A DNA stretch of 64,000 nt from an uncultured Spartobacteria bacterium (GCA_903919125.1 CAIXGS010000012.1:27706-91705), one strand, 5' to 3'; numbered from the stretch's first letter, positions 10,479 to 25,535 are shown. The notes: generated by a model not told the origin, from the letters alone. Translations and numbers: made by a program.

Positions 10479-12602
10479 TCAATCGGCTTCCGTCGTCGAA
10501 AATTCAATTAACAGCGGATCGATTCGGAAGGGATTAGAAAGGGGGAACATAAAGTAAGTGCCACCGGCGCGCACCGGCATCCCAGTGACGATGTGTTCGA
10601 TGATGCCGTCGGAGGTCGTTGCCCTGATCACTCGGCGGTTCCACGAATCAATGGTGATGGTTTCCACTCGGATGATTTTTGGGTAAATGGGTTGTGATGT
10701 GGCCCAGTCCGTATCCCAGAACCGTAGAAGTTCGAGCGTTTGATCCAAAAATTCCGCCGCTTTTCCGCTGAGATCATTTTGGCTATTATCGCTGAGTCGG
10801 TCATGAGCGAATATATTCCTTAGATTTGTGATGCTGTCGAACCCCCGCGGGGCAAGACGTTTTGCCGTGAGTGGTGCGTCAAGGTATCCCCGCTTTTCCG
10901 GTGGCGCATTGTCGAGATCCTTGGCCAACCTTTCCAAAAGACCGAGAAGTTGCCCCAGAGAGAGAGAGCTAAGCTTCCGGCTTTTGACTTCAGGAAGCTG
11001 CAGGAAGTGCTTTTCCGGGCCGCATTTATAGACTTGCAAGCAAATGAATCGGAGAAGGTTTCGGATGCTTGACTCGAGATGACTGCTAGCCTCGATTACC
11101 AGTCCTGCGCGCTCGTTGTATCCGGAAATCGGAAGTTTTGAGCGAATCGCTGTTACATGCTTGTGTGCAAAGGAAATGCCCTCCAATGGTTCTGGGAGAG
11201 GAAACCCAAGCTCAGAAAGGATTAAGACCGCAAGCTCGTCGGTGCTTACCGTTATTTTGGGAGTAAGCTTGTACTTGTCTCGGAGGATTCGACGCAATTG
11301 AGTCGCTCCGAGGCGCCTCAGAATTTCCATTGGATCAAGACGCGCGCAGTATTCTTTGAGGCGGAACAGCCGTTCGCCTTTGTACTGAAGTTCGTCCAGG
11401 AGAAGTTCCAGCTCTTGAGCCTCGGCCTCGGGTAGGGCGCTTAGTAATGCCACGAGGTTGTCCACATGCTGCATTTCGTGCCTGTGCGTATGGTTGGCGG
11501 GTTCGTGAAGCGATCCTCCGATTTTAGGGGAGGCGGGACGACTTGCCGATGAACTGGCTATGGAGGGCCGAGGATTGTGCTCTTCATCTGCGGCTAGGGG
11601 GGCGTTGAGTCCTTGTGTGCGCGCTAATTCAGTCTGGGGATCGGGTTCCCCTATCTGTTTAATCACGAGAGGGATTTTACTGACTCCTCCTTGGACGGCC
11701 TTCGCAAAGTATTTTTGTGCTATGGTCAGGAGCGCCACCACTCCCTGATTAAGGGTCTCAATCAACTCCCCATCGACGGAAATTAGACCGTGGACGACTT
11801 GGTTTCGTGCAAAGATTGCCTGCTCTACGGAAGTATCCAGACCGAGTGGGATCTTTGTTCCTCTTTTAGTGCTCGCTTCGCTGAATTCATGCCAGATGGT
11901 TTTTAATCCCTTTTTCTCTGGAAATTCGATGTTAAACACCCTGGCGCACCCATGCATAATGTCCTCAATGCGCGTGGTGATTGTCCGTATGCGAGTTTGC
12001 TCGTCACAAGCGAAGTCTCCGGGGGAGGTAGCGCTAAAAACATCTATGTGTTTGAAGTTCTCCTCCAGTGTTGGACAGCCTTCCAACGTGGCTACCGTAA
12101 TTTGGATGCCGCTGAAACCCACGTGTGTTGCAAGCCGCGACACCGCCGTCACTATGGCGCTCATGGACATTTTGGCGGTTCCAGTCCCGACCAAGGGCAT
12201 CAATACACGAGGGGGCGCATCTGGGTGTTTTTGCCTGAGAGACAGGATGGCGTCCCCGAGATTGCTGATAAAAGTGTGGGCGTCTGCGATCGAAACACTA
12301 ATTCGGGTGTCGAGATCCAAGGTGATTGCATGAAGCACTGCTATGGCAGGAAGTGCGCCAGCCGCAGTTTCAACGGTGCTTCCCACTTGAATGGGAGTTT
12401 TTAGGGACTCACGGATCGATTGGTTGAGAGCAGCAACTCCTGCGGATTGCCAAATGTCTCTAGCGGAGCCCCCAGCATGGGACAGATAGTTGTCATCGGA
12501 GGAAATTACGGCAAGCCACGGCCCGTCGCTTTTCGCGATGGCGCCAATCTCTCCAACAAGCACCTTATGGCGTAGGGGGTACATTATATCGTTTTTGTCC
12601 AC
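10479..12602 (-). CDS. Macro-domain protein with C-terminal RNxxxH (HEPN-like) motif; listed start is GTG, alternative ATG at 12584
   Basis: N-terminal AVISSDDNYLSHAGGSARDIWQSAG ... GSTVETAAGALPAIAVLH matches the Macro/ADP-ribose-binding fold (compare [25 protein letters not shown]); C-terminal NLRNIFAHDRL gives an RNxxxH motif; no TM segments. Confidence 0.8.
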   Translation of the reverse strand: MDKNDIMYPLRHKVLVGEIGAIAKSDGPWLAVISSDDNYLSHAGGSARDIWQSAGVAALNQSIRESLKTPIQVGSTVETAAGALPAIAVLHAITLDLDTRISVSIADAHTFISNLGDAILSLRQKHPDAPPRVLMPLVGTGTAKMSMSAIVTAVSRLATHVGFSGIQITVATLEGCPTLEENFKHIDVFSATSPGDFACDEQTRIRTITTRIEDIMHGCARVFNIEFPEKKGLKTIWHEFSEASTKRGTKIPLGLDTSVEQAIFARNQVVHGLISVDGELIETLNQGVVALLTIAQKYFAKAVQGGVSKIPLVIKQIGEPDPQTELARTQGLNAPLAADEEHNPRPSIASSSASRPASPKIGGSLHEPANHTHRHEMQHVDNLVALLSALPEAEAQELELLLDELQYKGERLFRLKEYCARLDPMEILRRLGATQLRRILRDKYKLTPKITVSTDELAVLILSELGFPLPEPLEGISFAHKHVTAIRSKLPISGYNERAGLVIEASSHLESSIRNLLRFICLQVYKCGPEKHFLQLPEVKSRKLSSLSLGQLLGLLERLAKDLDNAPPEKRGYLDAPLTAKRLAPRGFDSITNLRNIFAHDRLSDNSQNDLSGKAAEFLDQTLELLRFWDTDWATSQPIYPKIIRVETITIDSWNRRVIRATTSDGIIEHIVTGMPVRAGGTYFMFPLSNPFRIDPLLIEFSTTEAD

Positions 12603-13815: not shown

Positions 13816-15816
13816 TCAGTAGGGAAACGCTTTTTGGGGGTCAACGGTGAGGTCGCCTTGCGTACGGCGGGTCCATTCCTCCCAAAATAAAGGGGCAAAC
13901 GTGTCCGCAGGAATTTTAGATAGAACCTCGAGTTGCAGCTCGTGCGGGAAAAGCGGCGACCGGCCTGCCTGGGTGAAGAGTTCGTTGGCCTGCAGCAGGA
14001 TGCTGAGATAAATCACTTGGATCAAGGGGCCTTCGGCTTTGTTGAGAAGTTCTTCCGCCTTTTTGAAATCCGCCTCTGCTTCAGCAAACTTTCCAGAAGC
14101 GGCGAACAAAGTGCCTCGGTATTTCAGCGAGGTTGCAGTGAGCCAGTTATCGGATGTATTGCGGGGGGAGACTACTTCAAGAGAGGCGAAATTATCTTCG
14201 ACCCTCCCTTGCTGCTTCCATAACCGATAAGCAGCAAGCAATCGATGCCGGCTCAAAAAAGCTAGGCTGACCGGGTCTGCCGCAGCCAGCGCCTCTAGAT
14301 CGCTTCTGACTTGTTTTTCGACCTCCGCGATCTGATCCGGTTCAAAAAGTGCCGTCCACAATGCAGTGCGAACGGTCGACTTGGAGTAATGGTATCGATG
14401 CGAATCAACGGCTCCGCAATTCTGAATCAGTTGCAAAGCGATTTGGGCTGCTTCTTCCAAACAGGCTTTCGACTCCTGCTCGCACCCCGAACCCCTGAGC
14501 GCTTTGAAAAGAAGCACTTCACCACCCAGCGCCCCGATGGCTCCCAGCTTGTGCAAAAGGTAATCCTCTTCTGAACCAAAGGTCGCCGCTTCGATTTCGG
14601 CCACCAATTTTCTCCCCACCTGCTCCGCGTCCTCGAGCATCATGCGGTCCGAAAGGGAGACGACAAACTGATTGATCGCTTGAAAGCGGTCCAATGCGCT
14701 GTGCCTCCAGTTGGTGCCCAAAATTTGGCGGAAGTACGCATCCGCACGTGCGGCATGGCCGGAGTGATTGTCAATCGCAGCGAGAATGACAAGGGTCTTG
14801 AGGTAGGCGGGACGCTGCTTCTTGCCATTGGCATCGAGCCACTGCTGCCATTTTTCCGCACGACCCCTCGCCGTCTCGTAATCCACAGTCTTCCGTTCGA
14901 CTTGCGCTTCCAGGGAGGCGGCTTGCGCCAAGATTGAAGCCTCGCTCAGATGCACACCATGGTGTTCCAACGCCTCTTCCACGATCCCTCGCGCTTCGTT
15001 GAGCGAGGTTCCCCCAGAAAAAAATACGCCTCCCGAAACGCTTGGCGATGATCCGACTGTGAGCCAAAGCTGGACTCCGAGTTTTTCGGCGAGCTTTTGT
15101 TTAGCCCGCAGCCCTTCAACAGGTTTCAGACGTCCTTCGGCAATCGCGCCCGAGGCCAGCCAACTGAGCGCATCCACACCACGGTTCATCCAGTAAAAGG
15201 CGAGCCACACAGGCAGGGCAAAACTTCCTCCAACGAGCACATTCCCCGCGACAGGTTGGACACACGACAAAGTGATCCGCCACCCTTTGTTGCTGAGCGC
15301 TGCTGCGAGCCCCTCCCCGCAATCCTCCCACGATGGAACCCTCTGACAGGCTTCGTCCAAAATTACTATCCCATCTCGAGAACCGCTTTCCGATTTCAAC
15401 ATGAAAGGAACTGGAAATGCTTCCCCAGCGGCGTCCACCACAGGGATCAAACCGTGCGCCTGTTCAAAAGCTGATTTTCTTGCGTTAAACTTCTGCAGCG
15501 TGAGTTTGTCTGAATCGGCGAGAAGCGAGCACAGAGTCAGCACCGTGTGAAAGCTGTCGCGCTTGAAATCCGGTGCGAGGTGTTTCACGGCAATGGACAC
15601 GACCGGCCCTGCGTTCGACAAAGCATCGATAACGGATTTCGGCGTGTTCTTGCCATACAACCACAGTCGACAGAGCAATTCGCCCTCGACGGCAGCCTGC
15701 GCCTCAGGCGAAAGAGCATGGCCGCTCTGTAGCAGACTGACGAGGGCGTCGTCTGAAAAGAATCCGACATCTAAAAGGGAATCCCTCAATCGTTTAAATA
15801 AATCTCGAGGCGTCAT
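13816..15816 (-). CDS. large protein with Lon-protease-like (S16-like) domain and TPR-like helical C-terminus (paralog P1)
   Basis: VGGSFALPVWLAF...SWLASGAIAEGRLKPVEGLRAKQKLAEKLGVQLW resembles the Lon S16 core (DGPSAG...AMTGEITLRG.VLPIGGLKEK...G.K) with Ser and Lys retained; paralogous to 19022..21232. Confidence 0.7.
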   Translation of the reverse strand: MTPRDLFKRLRDSLLDVGFFSDDALVSLLQSGHALSPEAQAAVEGELLCRLWLYGKNTPKSVIDALSNAGPVVSIAVKHLAPDFKRDSFHTVLTLCSLLADSDKLTLQKFNARKSAFEQAHGLIPVVDAAGEAFPVPFMLKSESGSRDGIVILDEACQRVPSWEDCGEGLAAALSNKGWRITLSCVQPVAGNVLVGGSFALPVWLAFYWMNRGVDALSWLASGAIAEGRLKPVEGLRAKQKLAEKLGVQLWLTVGSSPSVSGGVFFSGGTSLNEARGIVEEALEHHGVHLSEASILAQAASLEAQVERKTVDYETARGRAEKWQQWLDANGKKQRPAYLKTLVILAAIDNHSGHAARADAYFRQILGTNWRHSALDRFQAINQFVVSLSDRMMLEDAEQVGRKLVAEIEAATFGSEEDYLLHKLGAIGALGGEVLLFKALRGSGCEQESKACLEEAAQIALQLIQNCGAVDSHRYHYSKSTVRTALWTALFEPDQIAEVEKQVRSDLEALAAADPVSLAFLSRHRLLAAYRLWKQQGRVEDNFASLEVVSPRNTSDNWLTATSLKYRGTLFAASGKFAEAEADFKKAEELLNKAEGPLIQVIYLSILLQANELFTQAGRSPLFPHELQLEVLSKIPADTFAPLFWEEWTRRTQGDLTVDPQKAFPY

Positions 15817-18730: not shown

Positions 18731-18976
18731 TCATGCTGCAATGGAGGGATGGTCGATTCTCCTCCGAGCGAATGCGAGGCACGCCTTGATGTCATCCACT
18801 TCAATGTCCGGCATTTCCTCGACAATTTGGTCCATGCTTAAGCCTGCCGCGAGCAGGTCGAGAACATCCCCCACCCTGATACGCATACCCCTGATGCAGG
18901 GGCGCCCGCCGCACTGTTCTGGGTTGAATGTGATGCGTTCAAGAAGCGCTTCCATGAGATAACGATACACCAGCAC
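18731..18976 (-). CDS. DUF433-family small protein (antitoxin-like), apparently solo
   Basis: CGGRPCIRGMRIRVGDVLDLLAAGLSMDQIVEEMPDIEVDDIKACLAFA matches the DUF433 pattern (cGGkP.I.GTRI.V..VL..LA.G.S.eeIl..YP.Lt.edI.aAL.YA). Confidence 0.75.
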   Translation of the reverse strand: MLVYRYLMEALLERITFNPEQCGGRPCIRGMRIRVGDVLDLLAAGLSMDQIVEEMPDIEVDDIKACLAFARRRIDHPSIAA

Positions 18977-19021
18977 TATATCGAGAACAAGGACACATAG
19001 GCACGCCAGTTCCCCCGCCGC

Positions 19022-21232
19022 TTGTATTTTGTATCAAGTTGCGATGTTTTTCCTTTCCTCCTTGGAGGCTGTAGGGGCAGGTTTGCAGAGTATTTCGGAC
19101 TCAATATCCGCCCAAATCCTCACCACAAACCACGCCCCGTTCCCATGCCATCCCCTGACGCCGCCGCAAATTATCCTCATTCTGGCTCGAAAGTCTGTTT
19201 CATGTCAGACGAGGAGCTTGCCAAACATTTGCTTCAGCCCTCTACCGGAGAAACAAGCGACTCAAACGCAGTAGCTGCTGAGGTCCTTTTCAGATTGTGG
19301 CTCTACCGTGGGGGGTGCCCAGATTCGATCAAACAAGCGGCGGCGGCTTTTGGGAAGGAGCACCCCGAATTCTATAGTTTTGTCACCCTCAAGTTGGTTC
19401 CTGTCCGCGGAAAGGCCCAGGGAGAAGATGAGTTAGACGAGGAGTCCGTACTGGAAAAGCGCTCAGGGGAAAACAAAGAGGCAAAACGCGCGGTTCCAAT
19501 TGGCAGCGTCGAAGCGCTTTTAACTGAGCGACTCAGGCAGTTTCGTTCGGCGCATGGCATCATTCCTTTGGTGCTGCACGAAGGCGGCCCTGCCTTTCCC
19601 GTGCCGTTTCAAATCTCTGTGGGAAAGCGTGGCATTCACACGTTTTTAGATGCGGGTGGTACTCCTCTGGATTCTTGGGGGGAACACTTTGCGCCGGTTT
19701 TGGAAATCCTCGAAACAGATTCAGGCGTGAGAATGACCTCGGGCTTCCCAAACGGGGAGGACGACATTGCCTACGAAGAGGGCGGCTTCGCGTTGCCGGT
19801 AGCGCTGGCCCTCGACAACTTGGAAAATTACTTGGAGATCGATCCGCTCAGCGTTTTGGCAACGGGGGCCATCGTGCACGGTCGTGTGGTTTCTGCAAAA
19901 GCTTGCGCCGCAAAAGCTGCGCTCGCCCGTAAAATGGGAGTGGAGCTTTGGGTCCAGCCAGACCCTTGCGACCACGACACGAACGCTCCGCATCAAGTCC
20001 TGGCGTTGGGCAACGATCAACCGTTGCTCAAAGCGCTGGAGTTGATCCGCCACAGCCTCGCCGGAATCGGGAAGGCTCGACCGACTGCACGCCACGCACG
20101 CGAAATCATTGCGCGTTACCGTAAAATTCCGCCCTCGAGATTGCGTGACATCCAAAAAGCCATTGTGATGGTTGAGAGTCATTTAAAAGTGCTCGTTGAC
20201 GAAGGAATTGACTATCTCCTACCGACCATTGCGGACGCATACATTCTTTTGGCGTCCCTTCACAATCATACGGGGAATGCGATAGTTGCCGACAAGGTGC
20301 TTGACGACATCCAACCGCACATCAAAGGCGACAAGGTGCGCATGTGTGAACTATATGCCCACAGAGTTGTTGCGCTCACGGACATGGGGCGTCTAGCTGA
20401 TGCGGAAAAGCTCGGCCGCAAGGCTCGTGAGATCGCCGGCACGCTGGATATCCTCGTGCATGGACAGGCGGAGGCTCTCGTTCAAACCACCGGTTCCCTT
20501 GGCGGGGAAGCGCTGCTCCACAAGGCGCTGCGAACCGGCAACGTAGCCGACTCGGACGAGGCCTACGGACTTCTGAACATCACCCTAGACATCACCGAAG
20601 AACTCGCCCAATCCGGTCACCAAACGCCTCATGTGGACGCCGATCTTTGGTACGCAAAAAGTGCGGTGCGCTATGTGCTTTGGCACGCGTATTTCACGCC
20701 AACGAAAATCACGGATCGAGTCAAAGAGTATGAACCGTTCGTCGAGGCGCCGCGTCTGGCGGGGAAGTACGACATCAGCGAGGAGTACCTAAAGCGGACG
20801 CATTTTCTCGGCGGTTACCGCGCTCTATTGGCGGGGAAGCCGCCCGCACATTCAGAGTTTACCACTTGGCCCCTGCCGTCTCTGCAGGACGGCGCGCCGG
20901 AATGGTTGGTCGCAACGGCGTTGAAATATCGCGGTGCGTTAAAGGCGCATTACGGCGATGCCGGCGCCAAGGCGGATTTTGAGGAAGCGGTTAAACTCCT
21001 GCGAGGCAACCAGCACGCCACTTTGCGGGTGATCCTATGGAGCATTGCGGCCGAGGCGAGATTGAGCGGCATCGCCTCACCGATTTTTGAGCGAGTCTTG
21101 GCTGAAGGAATTTACGACGTCGTGGACTATCTGTCCTGGGACGGCTCGATGGCCGGCTTAATCGACAAGTTGCTCAGCGGCAAATTCGGTGACGCGGATC
21201 TCGCAGAGTTCCGACGCAAGTTTGCGTATTAG
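19022..21232 (+). CDS. large protein with Lon-protease-like (S16-like) domain, catalytic Ser position replaced by Gly (paralog P2); likely true start ATG at 19202
   Basis: EEGGFALPVALAL...SVLATGAIVHGRVVSAKACAAKAALARKMGVELWV aligns to the same Lon-like core as P1; shared LWLY N-terminal motif and GIIPLV/AFPVPF block. Confidence 0.7.
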   Translation: MYFVSSCDVFPFLLGGCRGRFAEYFGLNIRPNPHHKPRPVPMPSPDAAANYPHSGSKVCFMSDEELAKHLLQPSTGETSDSNAVAAEVLFRLWLYRGGCPDSIKQAAAAFGKEHPEFYSFVTLKLVPVRGKAQGEDELDEESVLEKRSGENKEAKRAVPIGSVEALLTERLRQFRSAHGIIPLVLHEGGPAFPVPFQISVGKRGIHTFLDAGGTPLDSWGEHFAPVLEILETDSGVRMTSGFPNGEDDIAYEEGGFALPVALALDNLENYLEIDPLSVLATGAIVHGRVVSAKACAAKAALARKMGVELWVQPDPCDHDTNAPHQVLALGNDQPLLKALELIRHSLAGIGKARPTARHAREIIARYRKIPPSRLRDIQKAIVMVESHLKVLVDEGIDYLLPTIADAYILLASLHNHTGNAIVADKVLDDIQPHIKGDKVRMCELYAHRVVALTDMGRLADAEKLGRKAREIAGTLDILVHGQAEALVQTTGSLGGEALLHKALRTGNVADSDEAYGLLNITLDITEELAQSGHQTPHVDADLWYAKSAVRYVLWHAYFTPTKITDRVKEYEPFVEAPRLAGKYDISEEYLKRTHFLGGYRALLAGKPPAHSEFTTWPLPSLQDGAPEWLVATALKYRGALKAHYGDAGAKADFEEAVKLLRGNQHATLRVILWSIAAEARLSGIASPIFERVLAEGIYDVVDYLSWDGSMAGLIDKLLSGKFGDADLAEFRRKFAY

Positions 21233-24200
21233 AGAAGAAGTTCACTCCGCACTCCAACCGCACGTTTTCATGAACCTTAACGCATTTTTAGCGCAGCACA
21301 ACTTGAACGCATTAAACGGGAAACTACCGTTTAAATCGGCTGATGAGTTGCGATCCCTCTTTCCCGAGGGCAATACTTTAGATCAGTTGCAACTTCTCGG
21401 TTTGGAGGAGCGAAAGTTAAAAAGGGCGGTCGAGACCCTGCCCTTTCGAAGCAATCTTCCGACGCCGCTGGCTCTTTCATTGAAGGAGTTTCATCTATGC
21501 ACCAGCGGTGCCGAGTCGCTTTGGATGGCGTGCAATTTTTTGGAGATCGTTCTGAAATTTTGTTTCGCGGCTGCAATTGCCGAAAGAACAGAGACTTGTG
21601 GAGCGTTGGTAATGCCCGAATCTCTGGTGGATCTGATAAGCGAACGGATTGACACGCCTGGACTGGGAGAGTGGCTCAAACTTACTGAGAAAGCTGTCGA
21701 AAACGTGGGAACTTGGAATTCAAACACCCCGCTACAGAAGGAGCTTCTCAACACGGTTGAGAAGGTGCGCGTTCTTAAGGTAACCCACGGAATGTGGGAT
21801 ACTCGAAATCGTCTTGCGCACGGAGGATGGTTCAGGCGGTCTCCGGTCGATGTTGACATTTGGAGGGGGCCGTTTCTTGATTTTGTCGCGAAGGATCTAA
21901 TTTGGTTGGAGCGGGCCGAGCTTCTTGCTGGGGCTGGAGACAAGGTTTGGCTTTTTCGGGGCGAGACGGCGTCTGTGTATCATTCGTGGAACCATTGGCG
22001 GCGGGGTGCAATTCACGCCGGGATGTGCCGCATAATTTCGAGCAATCTTGGGGCTGATTTGGACGTCAGTCCCTTCGCTGCCACAAGTCCCGCAGTTCCC
22101 CTTCCTCTGATGTATGCGCGCTGGAAAGGCAGTTGCATAGAGTACATCAGCTATGGCGGATTGGTGGAATGGGTAAAGGAGCCTAATCGACTAAATAACG
22201 ATTGTTTCCGCAAAAACTTTATTCGCCCATCGTTTAAGTGGCTTTCAACTCCTTTTCCTGACTTTCGAGACAAAGGACAAGACGCCATTTCACAAACGGA
22301 GTCTTGCCGATTTTTGGTTAATATAGTGGACCAACGAATCAAAAAAGGCGGCGGAGGTATTCTTTGGGTGGATGGAGTCGAGGGCAGTGGCAAGTCCACG
22401 ATAATGGCTCATCTAGCGAAAAGACGTATCGATCAGCGTGATCTTGGTAAAGTGCTTACATTCGCGTACCGCTTTGAAAGCTCTTCCTTTTTAAGCCGCG
22501 CAGAGTATTTTTTACATTATATCTATCTGCGTCTGTCATCGGCTCATTGGAATCCATCCACTCAAAAATGGAGCGTATCCAAGGGAACAAACGAAGCGTT
22601 CGATCCGGCCTGCACAGTATCTGCGGAAGACATTCTGGATCTGTTCAAAAAAAAGACTGAGGATCCGCTGAGTATGATGCTGTTTGTCGTAGACGGCATC
22701 GATGATATGATCGCCAAGCACTATTGGTTCTTGGCTGAGGTCTTATCCCCTCTAACCAAAGATAGTAGAATTCTCTTTGTCGTGTCAGGCATGCACGGGA
22801 CGCCGGTTGCGTACAATTTTCGGATGAATGGGGCTTCCTCTGTTTTCCGCGACGGTTTGCCTCCTTTGACGTTAAGGGAATTTACTTCTGTGCTGTGCAC
22901 GGCATGCGGTGACTCTAGCACGAAATTGTTGGACCTCCAAACTCAGGCCGAACGCGAGAGCCACGCATTCGCGGAAAACCCAGAAGGAGTTGCGGGGGAG
23001 GAGGAAAGAAAATTGTTGGAGCTCCAAACTCGGGCCGAACGCAAGAGCCACGAATTCGCTGAAAACCCAGAACGAGTCGCGAGGGAAGAGAAAAGAATAC
23101 ACTCGTTTGGCTTTTTGGCAGAGGCCCATCGAAAAGGGAAGGGTTTACCTCTTTATGCATCCTACCTAGCCGAAGATTTGCGGTCGGGCGTGATCAAAAT
23201 CGGAGAAGTTGATGCCCTGCCTGAGGGCATTGAAGGTTACCATAACCTCCAGCTTGCTCGAACGGGTGTTTTAGAAATGCTCAGCCCCCTGCCTGCAAGC
23301 GCTCTTCGAGCGGCTTTTGGTGGCTTTGTGGCAGCCACTGAAATGCGTCTTGAAGGAAATCGGACCGTTGATGCCCGAGGAAAAGACGCGGCTCGGGCGT
23401 TGATTCAACCCGTTGATGAATATCTTGCGCGGGCCTCGGTACTCGCACTCATGGCTACGGATTCCAATGCCGTTACGGTGGATGAAATCAGCCAGCGTTT
23501 GGGGCAAACTGTGTTGCGAGGGCAGAACGCCGAGGAGCGCTCCGCGGTGTTGGAGCGCGCATTGGAAGCCGTTTCGCCCATGCTCAAAATGGCTCCAATC
23601 GATGAATCTGGACGAGAGGGGTTTGAGCTGGCGAACCAGTCTATTCGCCGGCATTTGAATTCACTCCCTGGGATCCAGCAGATGGCGCACCGGTTCAAGC
23701 GACGCTCGGACGATGCTCCGCCCTCGGAACCCCGCGAGCCTAAACGGGTGGATGATATTCCGCAATGGGAACGACCGAGGGAAGATAGGATTGACGATAG
23801 ACCATTCGAGGAACGGCGAAATACGTCCGAAATGGAAGAGCGCGTGGCCGCGTGCATCAGTCGCTTAGAGAGCATTAAGCGTTGTTCTGAAGTATCGGAG
23901 TTCGACTTAGACCTTTACGGCAGCGGGTCCAATGACTGGGTGGAACATTTTTTTGACGGAACCATAGCCGAGGTAGTTGCCATTCTCCAGAGAGGGAGAT
24001 CTCTCGCATTAACGCCTTCCAAAGCGTTCAAGGCCCTTGGACAGGTGGGAGTGACTTCGGATTTTAAATGGAGTGATCATCTGAGGGATGCGCCGAGCAT
24101 CCTTAGAAATTTCACGTGGAGTGAACCTTCTGTGACGCAACGCTCAATGCACCCCAGTTATCGATACCATTTGCACCCCAGTTATCGATACCATTTCGGG

Positions 24201-24557
24201 AAGGACTGGTACCAGAGGTCGTGGGATCTTGATAGGGGAACTAGTGCGGGCGGAAATGCTTTTGCATTAATAAGTTATATTGACTTTCAATTGAACAGCT
24301 GGGTGAGGAGAGTGTGCCGTGCCGAGAATGATGGTGTAACAGTTTATAAAATTGCTAATTCCCGAGAACTCGAATTTGTGTGCGGCGCGGTAGCCGACAT
24401 TCTAGATTTGGTAAGGGATGGAGCAGATTTGTCTGGGCTTGATGCTTTCCCTGGGGCCGTTCATCTCAAAAGCCGAGAAAATCAATTTTCTTTAGCTAGA
24501 ATTTTTTCGATCGAGTTCGTTTTCAGGGACCTTCCAGTACGCGTCTCTATAGATTAA
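21189..24557 (+). CDS. STAND-type P-loop NTPase (about 1100 aa) with unknown N-terminal domain and repetitive C-terminal region; likely true start ATG at 21270
   Basis: Walker A ILWVDGVEGSGKST and Walker B-like LMLFVVDGIDDM; 37-bp spacing after P2; lower GC than the backbone. Confidence 0.75.
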   Translation: MTRISQSSDASLRIREEVHSALQPHVFMNLNAFLAQHNLNALNGKLPFKSADELRSLFPEGNTLDQLQLLGLEERKLKRAVETLPFRSNLPTPLALSLKEFHLCTSGAESLWMACNFLEIVLKFCFAAAIAERTETCGALVMPESLVDLISERIDTPGLGEWLKLTEKAVENVGTWNSNTPLQKELLNTVEKVRVLKVTHGMWDTRNRLAHGGWFRRSPVDVDIWRGPFLDFVAKDLIWLERAELLAGAGDKVWLFRGETASVYHSWNHWRRGAIHAGMCRIISSNLGADLDVSPFAATSPAVPLPLMYARWKGSCIEYISYGGLVEWVKEPNRLNNDCFRKNFIRPSFKWLSTPFPDFRDKGQDAISQTESCRFLVNIVDQRIKKGGGGILWVDGVEGSGKSTIMAHLAKRRIDQRDLGKVLTFAYRFESSSFLSRAEYFLHYIYLRLSSAHWNPSTQKWSVSKGTNEAFDPACTVSAEDILDLFKKKTEDPLSMMLFVVDGIDDMIAKHYWFLAEVLSPLTKDSRILFVVSGMHGTPVAYNFRMNGASSVFRDGLPPLTLREFTSVLCTACGDSSTKLLDLQTQAERESHAFAENPEGVAGEEERKLLELQTRAERKSHEFAENPERVAREEKRIHSFGFLAEAHRKGKGLPLYASYLAEDLRSGVIKIGEVDALPEGIEGYHNLQLARTGVLEMLSPLPASALRAAFGGFVAATEMRLEGNRTVDARGKDAARALIQPVDEYLARASVLALMATDSNAVTVDEISQRLGQTVLRGQNAEERSAVLERALEAVSPMLKMAPIDESGREGFELANQSIRRHLNSLPGIQQMAHRFKRRSDDAPPSEPREPKRVDDIPQWERPREDRIDDRPFEERRNTSEMEERVAACISRLESIKRCSEVSEFDLDLYGSGSNDWVEHFFDGTIAEVVAILQRGRSLALTPSKAFKALGQVGVTSDFKWSDHLRDAPSILRNFTWSEPSVTQRSMHPSYRYHLHPSYRYHFGKDWYQRSWDLDRGTSAGGNAFALISYIDFQLNSWVRRVCRAENDGVTVYKIANSRELEFVCGAVADILDLVRDGADLSGLDAFPGAVHLKSRENQFSLARIFSIEFVFRDLPVRVSID
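22922..23096 (+). repeat. in-frame tandem duplication, 2 x about 87 bp (29-aa unit KLLDLQTQAERESHAFAENPEGVAGEEER)
   Basis: Two adjacent copies about 90% identical at nucleotide level inside the STAND gene. Confidence 0.7.
24149..24196 (+). repeat. perfect 24-bp tandem duplication x2 (HPSYRYHL HPSYRYHF) inside the STAND gene
   Basis: gcaccccagttatcgataccattt occurs twice in direct succession. Confidence 0.85.
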
Positions 24558-24635: not shown

Positions 24636-25535
24636 ATGAGTGTGCACCTCAAGCACTCACTTATGCTCAACGAAGAAATCGACCACATCATCGACGGTAT
24701 CTGCCAGGAACACGGCTCATTGTCTGACGCTTTTGATTTTCCTGAAGAACCTGAGTCCGACGAGACTCCCAACGAACGCGACGAGTTCCCCGAAGACGAC
24801 GAATCCGACCTCCCGCCAGATTCTGGGATTGGCGGGACTTTCCGGCCGGGAGGCGGTCTCGGCCGCTTCGTAAACATGTATCCGGCCAATGCCCGGGGGG
24901 CGTGCCGGCCTCATTTCCTCGTGATCTTTCCTGCCGATCCTTTGCGCAAACATCGCAAGGTGACGGCGCACGAAAGACAGCGCCGGACCATCTTGTATTT
25001 CCAAAACGCTCTGCGCGCCATGCACCGTTGGGCCGCAAATTGTGGGGGTAAAGACGTGATCCTGCTCACGGAGCAATGGCCCGTTGCGCCCGGAATCACC
25101 GAGTCTCCCCTCTGGGCAAATACCTTGGCCACACACGGCGCTCAGCATGAAGACTGGCGGGTCACCCTGCGCGGATTGCTTCGCAGCCTCCACCGCCGAG
25201 CGTCTTCGGATCCAGCCTTGGCGCAGTTGACGGGGCTTATCCGTGATTTGGAGATTCACTGGGATCATGGTTGGTGGCCGCATCGGCACTGGAGGCATTG
25301 GGTTGAAACCGTGAATAGAGCGCCGATTCCGAGCCAGTTTAAGAAGAGGCTACTTCAAGGTTTACCTTACAAGTCCCACGGGTTGATTGATCCGGCGCTG
25401 ACTTTTCATGAGAACCTTCAGGCCTTCCGCGAGATGCATCCAGACGTGAACTTTCATATCCGCCTCGCAGCGGTGCCTCATCAAAAGCCAGCTCGATTCC
25501 GCTTCGTGGGCGGCGAACCCTGGTCACGAGTTTAG
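24636..25535 (+). CDS. hypothetical protein (299 aa), downstream of the STAND gene
   Basis: ATG start; acidic N-terminal segment; no recognisable domain. Confidence 0.5.
   Translation: MSVHLKHSLMLNEEIDHIIDGICQEHGSLSDAFDFPEEPESDETPNERDEFPEDDESDLPPDSGIGGTFRPGGGLGRFVNMYPANARGACRPHFLVIFPADPLRKHRKVTAHERQRRTILYFQNALRAMHRWAANCGGKDVILLTEQWPVAPGITESPLWANTLATHGAQHEDWRVTLRGLLRSLHRRASSDPALAQLTGLIRDLEIHWDHGWWPHRHWRHWVETVNRAPIPSQFKKRLLQGLPYKSHGLIDPALTFHENLQAFREMHPDVNFHIRLAAVPHQKPARFRFVGGEPWSRV

What the first reader, a model, noticed from the sequence alone, without database searches (positions are those of the whole stretch)
21189..24557. 1100-aa STAND/P-loop NTPase co-operonic with the Lon-like paralog P2; low GC
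Walker A and Walker B are embedded about 390 aa from the N-terminus, after an uncharacterised N-terminal domain and before a long C-terminal region. This is the domain logic of Avs/NLR-like antiviral STAND proteins (sensor, NTPase, effector). The gene starts 37 bp after P2 and has markedly lower GC than the backbone, consistent with horizontal acquisition. A Lon-like partner plus a STAND NTPase is an unfamiliar combination.
Basis: partly seen in the sequence, partly recalled or inferred. Interest (0 to 1): 0.7.

Follow-up and report, generated by a model that had tools for sequence, protein, structure and literature searches.

The report
HEPN–NACHT immune-type NTPase with Lon-fold/TPR partner
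The gene encodes a rare bacterial relative of animal NLR immune receptors, with a predicted RNA-cutting head, a NACHT ATPase switch and an unknown tail; the gene just upstream encodes a Lon-shaped but apparently non-proteolytic TPR protein that in other genomes heads an unrelated DISARM/ARMADA-like defence operon.

Summary
A 1095-aa gene (21270-24557, +) starts 37 bp after P2. It has Walker A at aa 369-376 and the NACHT-type Walker B DGIDD at aa 475-479. It passes Pfam NPHP3_N and has the lowest GC in the window (50.7% against 54.2%).

It is a NACHT-clade (NLR-like) STAND protein. Its N-terminal domain carries an invariant RNxLAH (Rx4H) motif, so it is most likely a HEPN RNase effector, not a sensor. 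At least 142 relatives share HEPN-like + NACHT, usually followed by WD40 repeats. Here the WD40 part is replaced by a helical region and a ~230-aa tail of unknown function. That tail usually sits just upstream of an ORF299 homologue.

The surprise is in P2. Its homologues sit in the same position ahead of SNF2-methylase-YprA (DISARM/ARMADA-like) operons. P2 is also mosaic: its C-terminal third tracks the downstream partner, and its N-terminal two-thirds is swapped between otherwise near-identical loci.

A defence role and P2-STAND coupling are inferred, not shown. The STAND is a new variant of a known kind.

The parts
21270..24557 (+). STAND gene, 1095 aa: HEPN-like N-terminal domain, NACHT NTPase, helical region, low-complexity linker, lineage-specific C-terminal domain
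   Evidence: Exact protein P0001 in the database. Pfam NPHP3_N 32.1 bits. 348 relatives at E<1e-3 and 142 at E<1e-10.
21447..21974 (+). N-terminal domain (aa ~60-235), predicted HEPN-type RNase effector
21804..21821 (+). R179-N180-R-L-A-H184: Rx4H catalytic-type HEPN motif
   Evidence: 139 of 153 family members carry RNx[LMIVY][AV]H.
22302..22949 (+). NACHT NTPase module (aa ~345-560)
   Evidence: Pfam NPHP3_N covers aa 360-498, with AAA_16 and NACHT below their cut-offs. Relatives pass PF05729 NACHT.
22374..22397 (+). Walker A GVEGSGKS (aa 369-376)
   Evidence: G369, G372, G374, K375 and S376 are invariant in alignment A1.
22683..22706 (+). Walker B with the NACHT signature: FVVD-G-I-D-D (aa 472-479)
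   Evidence: The signature D[GAS]hDE is as defined in 10.1101/2022.07.19.500537.
22923..23097 (+). In-frame 87-bp x2 tandem duplication (29-aa repeat LL(D/E)LQT(Q/R)AER.SH.FAENPE...) just after the NTPase module
   Evidence: TRF, 88% matches. Absent from P0002 and P0003; present in L016.
23871..24554 (+). C-terminal domain (aa ~868-1095), function unknown; takes the place of the WD40 sensor of relatives
   Evidence: Shared only with P0002, P0003 and P0026-28 and with the ORF upstream of ORF299 homologues in L010 and L011 (33% identity, E 8e-22).
24148..24196 (+). Exact in-frame 24-bp x2 duplication (HPSYRYH x2) in the C-terminal domain
   Evidence: Single copy in L016.
19145..21232 (+). P2, 695 aa: N-terminal helical domain, Lon-protease-fold domain, TPR domain; immediately upstream of the STAND gene
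19556..20014 (+). Lon-protease-fold domain of P2 (aa ~138-290); K257 and T240 conserved; F215 at the inferred catalytic-Ser position
20024..21220 (+). TPR-like domain of P2 (aa ~294-692); its last ~250 aa co-segregate with the downstream partner
18995..20513 (.). Divergent patch against locus L016: 52-71% DNA identity, flanked by ~93% (DUF433) on one side and 84-100% (P2 3' third, STAND, ORF299) on the other, apart from four 200-bp windows at 78-82%
   Evidence: Sliding-window DNA identity and blastn. Protein segments.
21233..21269 (+). 37-bp P2-STAND spacer; no terminator-like site in it
   Evidence: The same 33-37 bp spacing separates P2 homologues from the SNF2 gene in L002, L005 and L018.
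24636..25535 (+). ORF299 (homologues start at the ATG at 24663); conserved partner downstream of proteins that carry the C-terminal domain; no known domain
   Evidence: 8 homologue clusters. Alignment A5. Contexts. No Pfam, PADLOC, NCBIfam, PHROGs or PDB hit.
13816..15816 (-). P1, paralogue of P2 (30% identity), last gene of a conserved 152-399-318-P1 operon on the minus strand
   Evidence: The operon order is conserved in L017.
18731..18976 (-). DUF433 gene, divergent from P2; also upstream of P2 in L016 (by gene call) and matched by DNA similarity in L013
   Evidence: Pfam 86.5 bits..

Best explanation
Gene 21270-24557 encodes a bacterial NLR-related (NACHT-clade STAND) protein. Its layout is an N-terminal HEPN-type RNase effector, a NACHT NTPase switch and a C-terminal recognition region.

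Shown:
- The NACHT motifs and the Pfam match.
- A large family with the same N-terminal domain + NACHT core.
- An invariant RNxLAH motif in that N-terminal domain.
- Replacement of the usual WD40 sensor by a helical region plus a ~230-aa tail, a tail that in most contexts seen lies just upstream of an ORF299 homologue.

Inferred, by analogy with Avs and bNACHT proteins and with HEPN RNases (my own knowledge of these families):
- A phage-derived cue bound by the C-terminal region, possibly together with ORF299, releases autoinhibition.
- NTP-dependent oligomerisation brings HEPN domains together into composite Rx4H active sites.
- RNA is cleaved and the infected cell stops growing (abortive infection).

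The upstream gene P2 encodes a protein with a Lon protease fold that lacks a serine at the inferred catalytic position, followed by a TPR domain. Shown: the fold, and the fact that homologues occupy the same position ahead of a completely different SNF2-methylase-YprA (DISARM/ARMADA-like) operon. Also shown: the C-terminal TPR third follows the downstream partner, while the N-terminal two-thirds is exchanged between near-identical loci.

Inferred: P2 is a modular accessory subunit (sensor, adaptor or regulator). It would assemble through its Lon-fold domain, as RadA and ComM do, and dock on its partner system through the C-terminal TPRs.
For: NACHT:
- Pfam NPHP3_N is above its cut-off.
- Walker A and the DGIDD signature are present (signature definition).
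- Relatives pass PF05729.

Family:
- 142 representatives at E<1e-10.
- 126 of 153 carry RNxLAH, Walker A and the NACHT Walker B in the right order and spacing.
- Most sampled relatives end in WD40 repeats.

HEPN:
- R and H of the motif are invariant in 124/124 and N in 122/124.
- The three most frequent Pfam hits among 28 family members are all HEPN families: MAE_28990, RiboL-PSP and Swt1.
- N-terminal HEPN + STAND fusions in bacteria are on record (PMC3710099). RNase effectors on bacterial NACHT proteins are also on record.

Partners:
- The triad P2-STAND-ORF299 recurs in L016. Its three proteins also occur in records with a 66,992-bp contig.
- The tail domain and ORF299 are adjacent in L010 and L011.

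P2:
- The model is good (pLDDT 84).
- P2 homologues lie 33-60 bp upstream of SNF2/Eco57I-methylase/DEAD-MZB genes in L002-L005 and L018.
- Mosaic identities. A prediction made from them, that P0006 would be followed by an SNF2 gene, held.
- The DNA patch between otherwise near-identical loci.
Against: - No experiment exists. No PADLOC, NCBIfam or PHROGs model matches any of the three proteins.
- The window protein itself hits no Pfam HEPN model.
- The tail domain and ORF299 have no recognisable fold or motif, so 'sensor' is a guess from position.
- The three triad loci are close relatives (STAND >=90% identical), so their synteny is weak evidence of coupling.
- The more distant STAND homologue P0003 has ORF299-like and unknown neighbours, but its upstream gene could not be read.
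- C-terminal co-segregation of P2 with its partner could be simple physical linkage around a recombination breakpoint.
- In L015 and L006 the P2 homologue is not followed by a co-directional partner.
Confidence: 0.6

Rival explanations
1. The STAND protein acts alone, and P2 is merely a neighbouring island gene. It could be an independent single-gene system or a hotspot-flanking gene. The mosaic pattern would then reflect only recombination breakpoints inside a shared flanking gene.
For: - Many bacterial NACHT proteins work as single genes (bNACHT01).
- P2 homologues occur without a co-directional downstream partner in L015, and divergently placed in L006.
- Co-segregation of the 3' end with the next gene is what plain linkage predicts.
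Against: - The same tight, co-directional 33-37 bp junction is seen ahead of two unrelated systems.
- The P1/P2 family is extremely rare and accessory, not a core anchor gene.
- The exchanged patch is confined to P2, with conserved DNA on both sides.
Confidence: 0.3
2. The N-terminal domain is not a nuclease. It would be a helical adaptor or regulatory domain that happens to carry an RNxxxH motif. The toxic activity would then reside in the C-terminal domain, ORF299 or a recruited host factor.
For: - The window protein hits no Pfam HEPN model.
- Effector-associated adaptor domains are common on bacterial STANDs (mentions EADs).
Against: - The exact HEPN catalytic signature (R, polar residue, x3, H) is absolutely conserved across 124 divergent sequences, with further conserved polar residues at family positions 92 and 89; position 89 is Asp in most members and Asn in the window protein.
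- The weak Pfam hits most shared among members are HEPN families.
Confidence: 0.15
3. P2 (or its paralogue P1) is an active protease. It would process the STAND protein, ORF299 or a phage protein to switch the system on, as Lon-type proteases do in CalpL-type CRISPR signalling or BrxL in BREX (my own knowledge of those systems).
For: - The Lon fold is clear.
- The Lys (K257) and Thr (T240) that match Lon K722 and T704 are conserved.
- P1-clade members have a Ser one residue before the inferred catalytic position (GGSFALP).
Against: - P2-clade proteins have no conserved Ser or Thr in the GG(F/M/I/Y)ALP segment.
- With E. coli Lon spacing (S679 to T704 = 25 residues), the Ser position falls on F215.
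- There is no AAA+ or other unfoldase module.
- RadA and ComM, which also match, are non-proteolytic Lon-fold proteins (their lack of activity is from my own knowledge).
Confidence: 0.1
4. The cassette is not antiviral. It would be a NACHT signalling protein used for another conflict or regulatory purpose, such as kin discrimination, programmed death in multicellular-like consortia or stress signalling.
For: - NACHT-WD40 proteins are abundant in bacteria with complex lifestyles and have been linked to such roles (Kaur et al., cited).
- No known defence model matches.
Against: - The context is an island with a TIR-RHS protein and mobile-element-type genes.
- Composition is atypical.
- P2 homologues sit next to DISARM/ARMADA-like restriction-type operons and other defence-type genes such as RloB and a PLD-helicase.
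- Distribution is patchy and rare.
Confidence: 0.1

Closest known systems
Bacterial NLR-related NACHT proteins (bNACHT; Kibby et al., 10.1101/2022.07.19.500537)
   Same: - Central NACHT module with the D[GAS]hDE-type Walker B.
- An enzymatic effector at the extreme N-terminus and a diversifying C-terminal region.
- Some members lack repeat sensors.
   Different: - No PADLOC model matches.
- The C-terminal part is neither a repeat array nor the short clade-14 extension. It is ~520 aa with a unique 230-aa tail.
- The gene sits in a three-gene cassette with a Lon-fold/TPR protein and ORF299.
HEPN + STAND fusion proteins noted by Anantharaman et al. 2013 (PMC3710099: Npun_F6454-type 'STAND-ATPase, TPR, S1'; Bacillus cereus gi 229028907)
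   Same: [quoted passage not shown]
   Different: - Those examples carry TPR, S1 or cold-shock C-terminal parts and belong to the Swt1/Abi2-like HEPN group.
- Here the HEPN-like domain matches no Pfam HEPN model directly.
- Relatives here carry WD40 repeats, and the window protein a novel tail.
Avs (antiviral STAND) proteins
   Same: Works like them in outline: effector-NTPase-sensor, with expected ligand-triggered oligomerisation.
   Different: - Avs proteins belong to other STAND clades and mostly use TPR-like sensors in cis.
- No Avs model matches.
- The trigger here is unknown.
Lon-fold domains of RadA/Sms and ComM, and Lon proteolytic domains (MEROPS S16)
   Different: - No detectable sequence similarity.
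- No serine at the inferred catalytic position.
- No ATPase module.
- Fused to a 400-aa TPR domain instead.
RRNPP/Rap-PlcR and MalT-type TPR sensor domains
   Same: The P2 C-terminal 400 aa is a TPR superhelix most similar to peptide- or ligand-binding TPR sensors.
   Different: No HTH, phosphatase or NTPase output domain. The N-terminal partner is a Lon-fold domain.
DISARM class 1 / ARMADA type II operons (PMC12458937)
   Same: The operons downstream of P2 homologues in L002-L005 and L018 have the same gene content and order: SNF2 helicase, Eco57I/PglX-type methyltransferase, YprA-like DEAD/MZB helicase.
   Different: - None is present in this window.
- In the passages of that paper retrieved here (term search for TPR, Lon, SNF2, STAND, Eco57I), no Lon-fold/TPR head gene is described for these systems.

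Membership tests
STAND NTPases, NACHT clade | P-loop Walker A GxxGxGK[ST] | tested here: met
   GVEGSGKS at aa 369-376; invariant in the homologue alignment.
STAND NTPases, NACHT clade | Walker B with the NACHT signature D[GAS]hDE (definition in 10.1101/2022.07.19.500537) | tested here: met
   FVVD-G-I-D-D at aa 472-479, with Asp in place of the final Glu. P0003 has DGIDE and P0004 DGLDE.
STAND NTPases, NACHT clade | Match to a curated NACHT-type profile above its threshold | tested here: met
   PF24883 NPHP3_N scores 32.1 bits against 24.8. PF05729 NACHT scores only 14.4 against 26.7 in the window protein. Relatives P0030, P0037 and P0042 pass PF05729.
STAND NTPases, NACHT clade | Winged-helix and helical domains after the NTPase core | not tested
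The region aa 600-800 aligns with homologues, but its fold was not determined.
Avs1-5 and other catalogued defence STANDs (PADLOC-DB 2.0) | Match to a family profile | tested here: not met
   Best hits are mad8 at E 0.027 and PDC-S20 at E 0.075, over the P-loop only.
Avs / bNACHT (functional class) | Protection against phage that depends on NTP binding | not testable with these tools
   Needs cloning and phage challenge.
HEPN superfamily | Rx4-6H motif with a polar residue after the Arg | tested here: met
   R179-N180-R-L-A-H184. R and H are in 124/124 family members and N in 122/124.
HEPN superfamily | All-alpha up-down helical bundle similar to solved HEPN domains | tested here: inconclusive
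HEPN superfamily | Match to a curated HEPN profile | tested here: inconclusive
   None for the window protein. Family members give 7 weak member-hits in total to HEPN_MAE_28990, HEPN_RiboL-PSP and HEPN_Swt1, best E 0.003-0.04.
HEPN superfamily | Metal-independent endoRNase activity | not testable with these tools
   Biochemistry needed.
Lon proteases (S16), for P2 | Lon proteolytic-domain fold | tested here: met
Lon proteases (S16), for P2 | Ser-Lys catalytic dyad | tested here: not met
   Lys is present (K257, invariant). The inferred Ser position is F215, which is F/M/I/Y across the family. The spacing matches E. coli Lon S679/T704/K722. The residue assignment is by spacing and secondary structure, not by superposed coordinates.
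Lon proteases (S16), for P2 | Sequence match to Lon_C, or an AAA+ module | tested here: not met
   No Pfam, NCBIfam or PDB sequence hit. hhalign against the E. coli Lon P-domain gives probability 0.1%.
DISARM / ARMADA | SNF2 helicase + DNA methyltransferase + YprA-like helicase operon | tested here: not met
   Absent from the window. Present only downstream of P2 homologues in L002-L005 and L018.

The most novel reading that the evidence does not exclude
The P1/P2 proteins (Lon fold without a serine at the inferred catalytic position, plus TPR) would be a previously undescribed class of exchangeable sensor/adaptor subunit. They would plug into unrelated immune effectors: an NLR-like HEPN-NACHT protein here, and DISARM/ARMADA-like restriction machinery elsewhere. 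A partner-specific C-terminal TPR part would dock on the effector. A hypervariable N-terminal helical + Lon-fold part, swapped by recombination, would set what is sensed.
Probability: 0.25. Interest if true: 0.8.

Novelty: new variant of a known kind. Interest (0 to 1): 0.55.

Why it matters
- Bacterial NLR-like proteins are the closest prokaryotic counterparts of animal and plant immune receptors. What they sense and how accessory proteins tune them is known for only a few. This locus offers a compact HEPN-NACHT protein with a non-repeat C-terminal region and two dedicated neighbours, in a phylum (Verrucomicrobiota, inferred) with almost no studied defence systems.
- The P2 family is the more interesting part. 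The same rare Lon-fold/TPR gene heads two mechanistically unrelated systems, and allelic replacement is confined to one part of the protein. That is the pattern expected for a shared, rapidly evolving recognition or regulatory module. If confirmed, it would show that sensing modules can be traded between an abortive-infection NLR and a restriction-type DISARM/ARMADA system.
- If P2 proves unrelated to its neighbours, the locus is simply one more uncharacterised bNACHT variant.

Tried and rejected
- PADLOC, NCBIfam and PHROGs scans of STAND, P2, ORF299 and the P1 operon proteins gave nothing useful.
- PDB sequence and profile searches found nothing for STAND, P2, the N-terminal domain profile, the Lon-fold profile or ORF299.
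- Foldseek of the N-terminal model against the PDB gave no match with E<0.6.
- hhalign of the N-terminal profile against a DUF4145 HEPN protein from L015 gave no alignment of the motifs.
- hhalign of the Lon-fold profile against the E. coli Lon P-domain gave probability 0.1%.
- Scans for P2 relatives gave one dubious hit in 185,579 species genomes, two in the JGI metagenome contigs and none in viral contigs. The family is rare and the window's species is not in the genome collection.
- The afdb50 structure library was unavailable.
- Promoter and terminator scans were no better than shuffled sequence.
- Rfam found no RNA family in 12-28 kb.
- I considered that P2 and the 707-aa protein (10479-12602) were the paralogue pair. 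Rejected: there is no similarity, and the paralogue is P1 at 13816-15816.
- I considered that the 363-aa proteins of L007 and L015 were a shared partner. Rejected.
- The PADLOC 'MzaA' hit at 1045-2199 is just a sigma-70 domain.
- Minus-strand ORFs inside the STAND gene are conserved in L016 only because the DNA is the same. They are not treated as genes.

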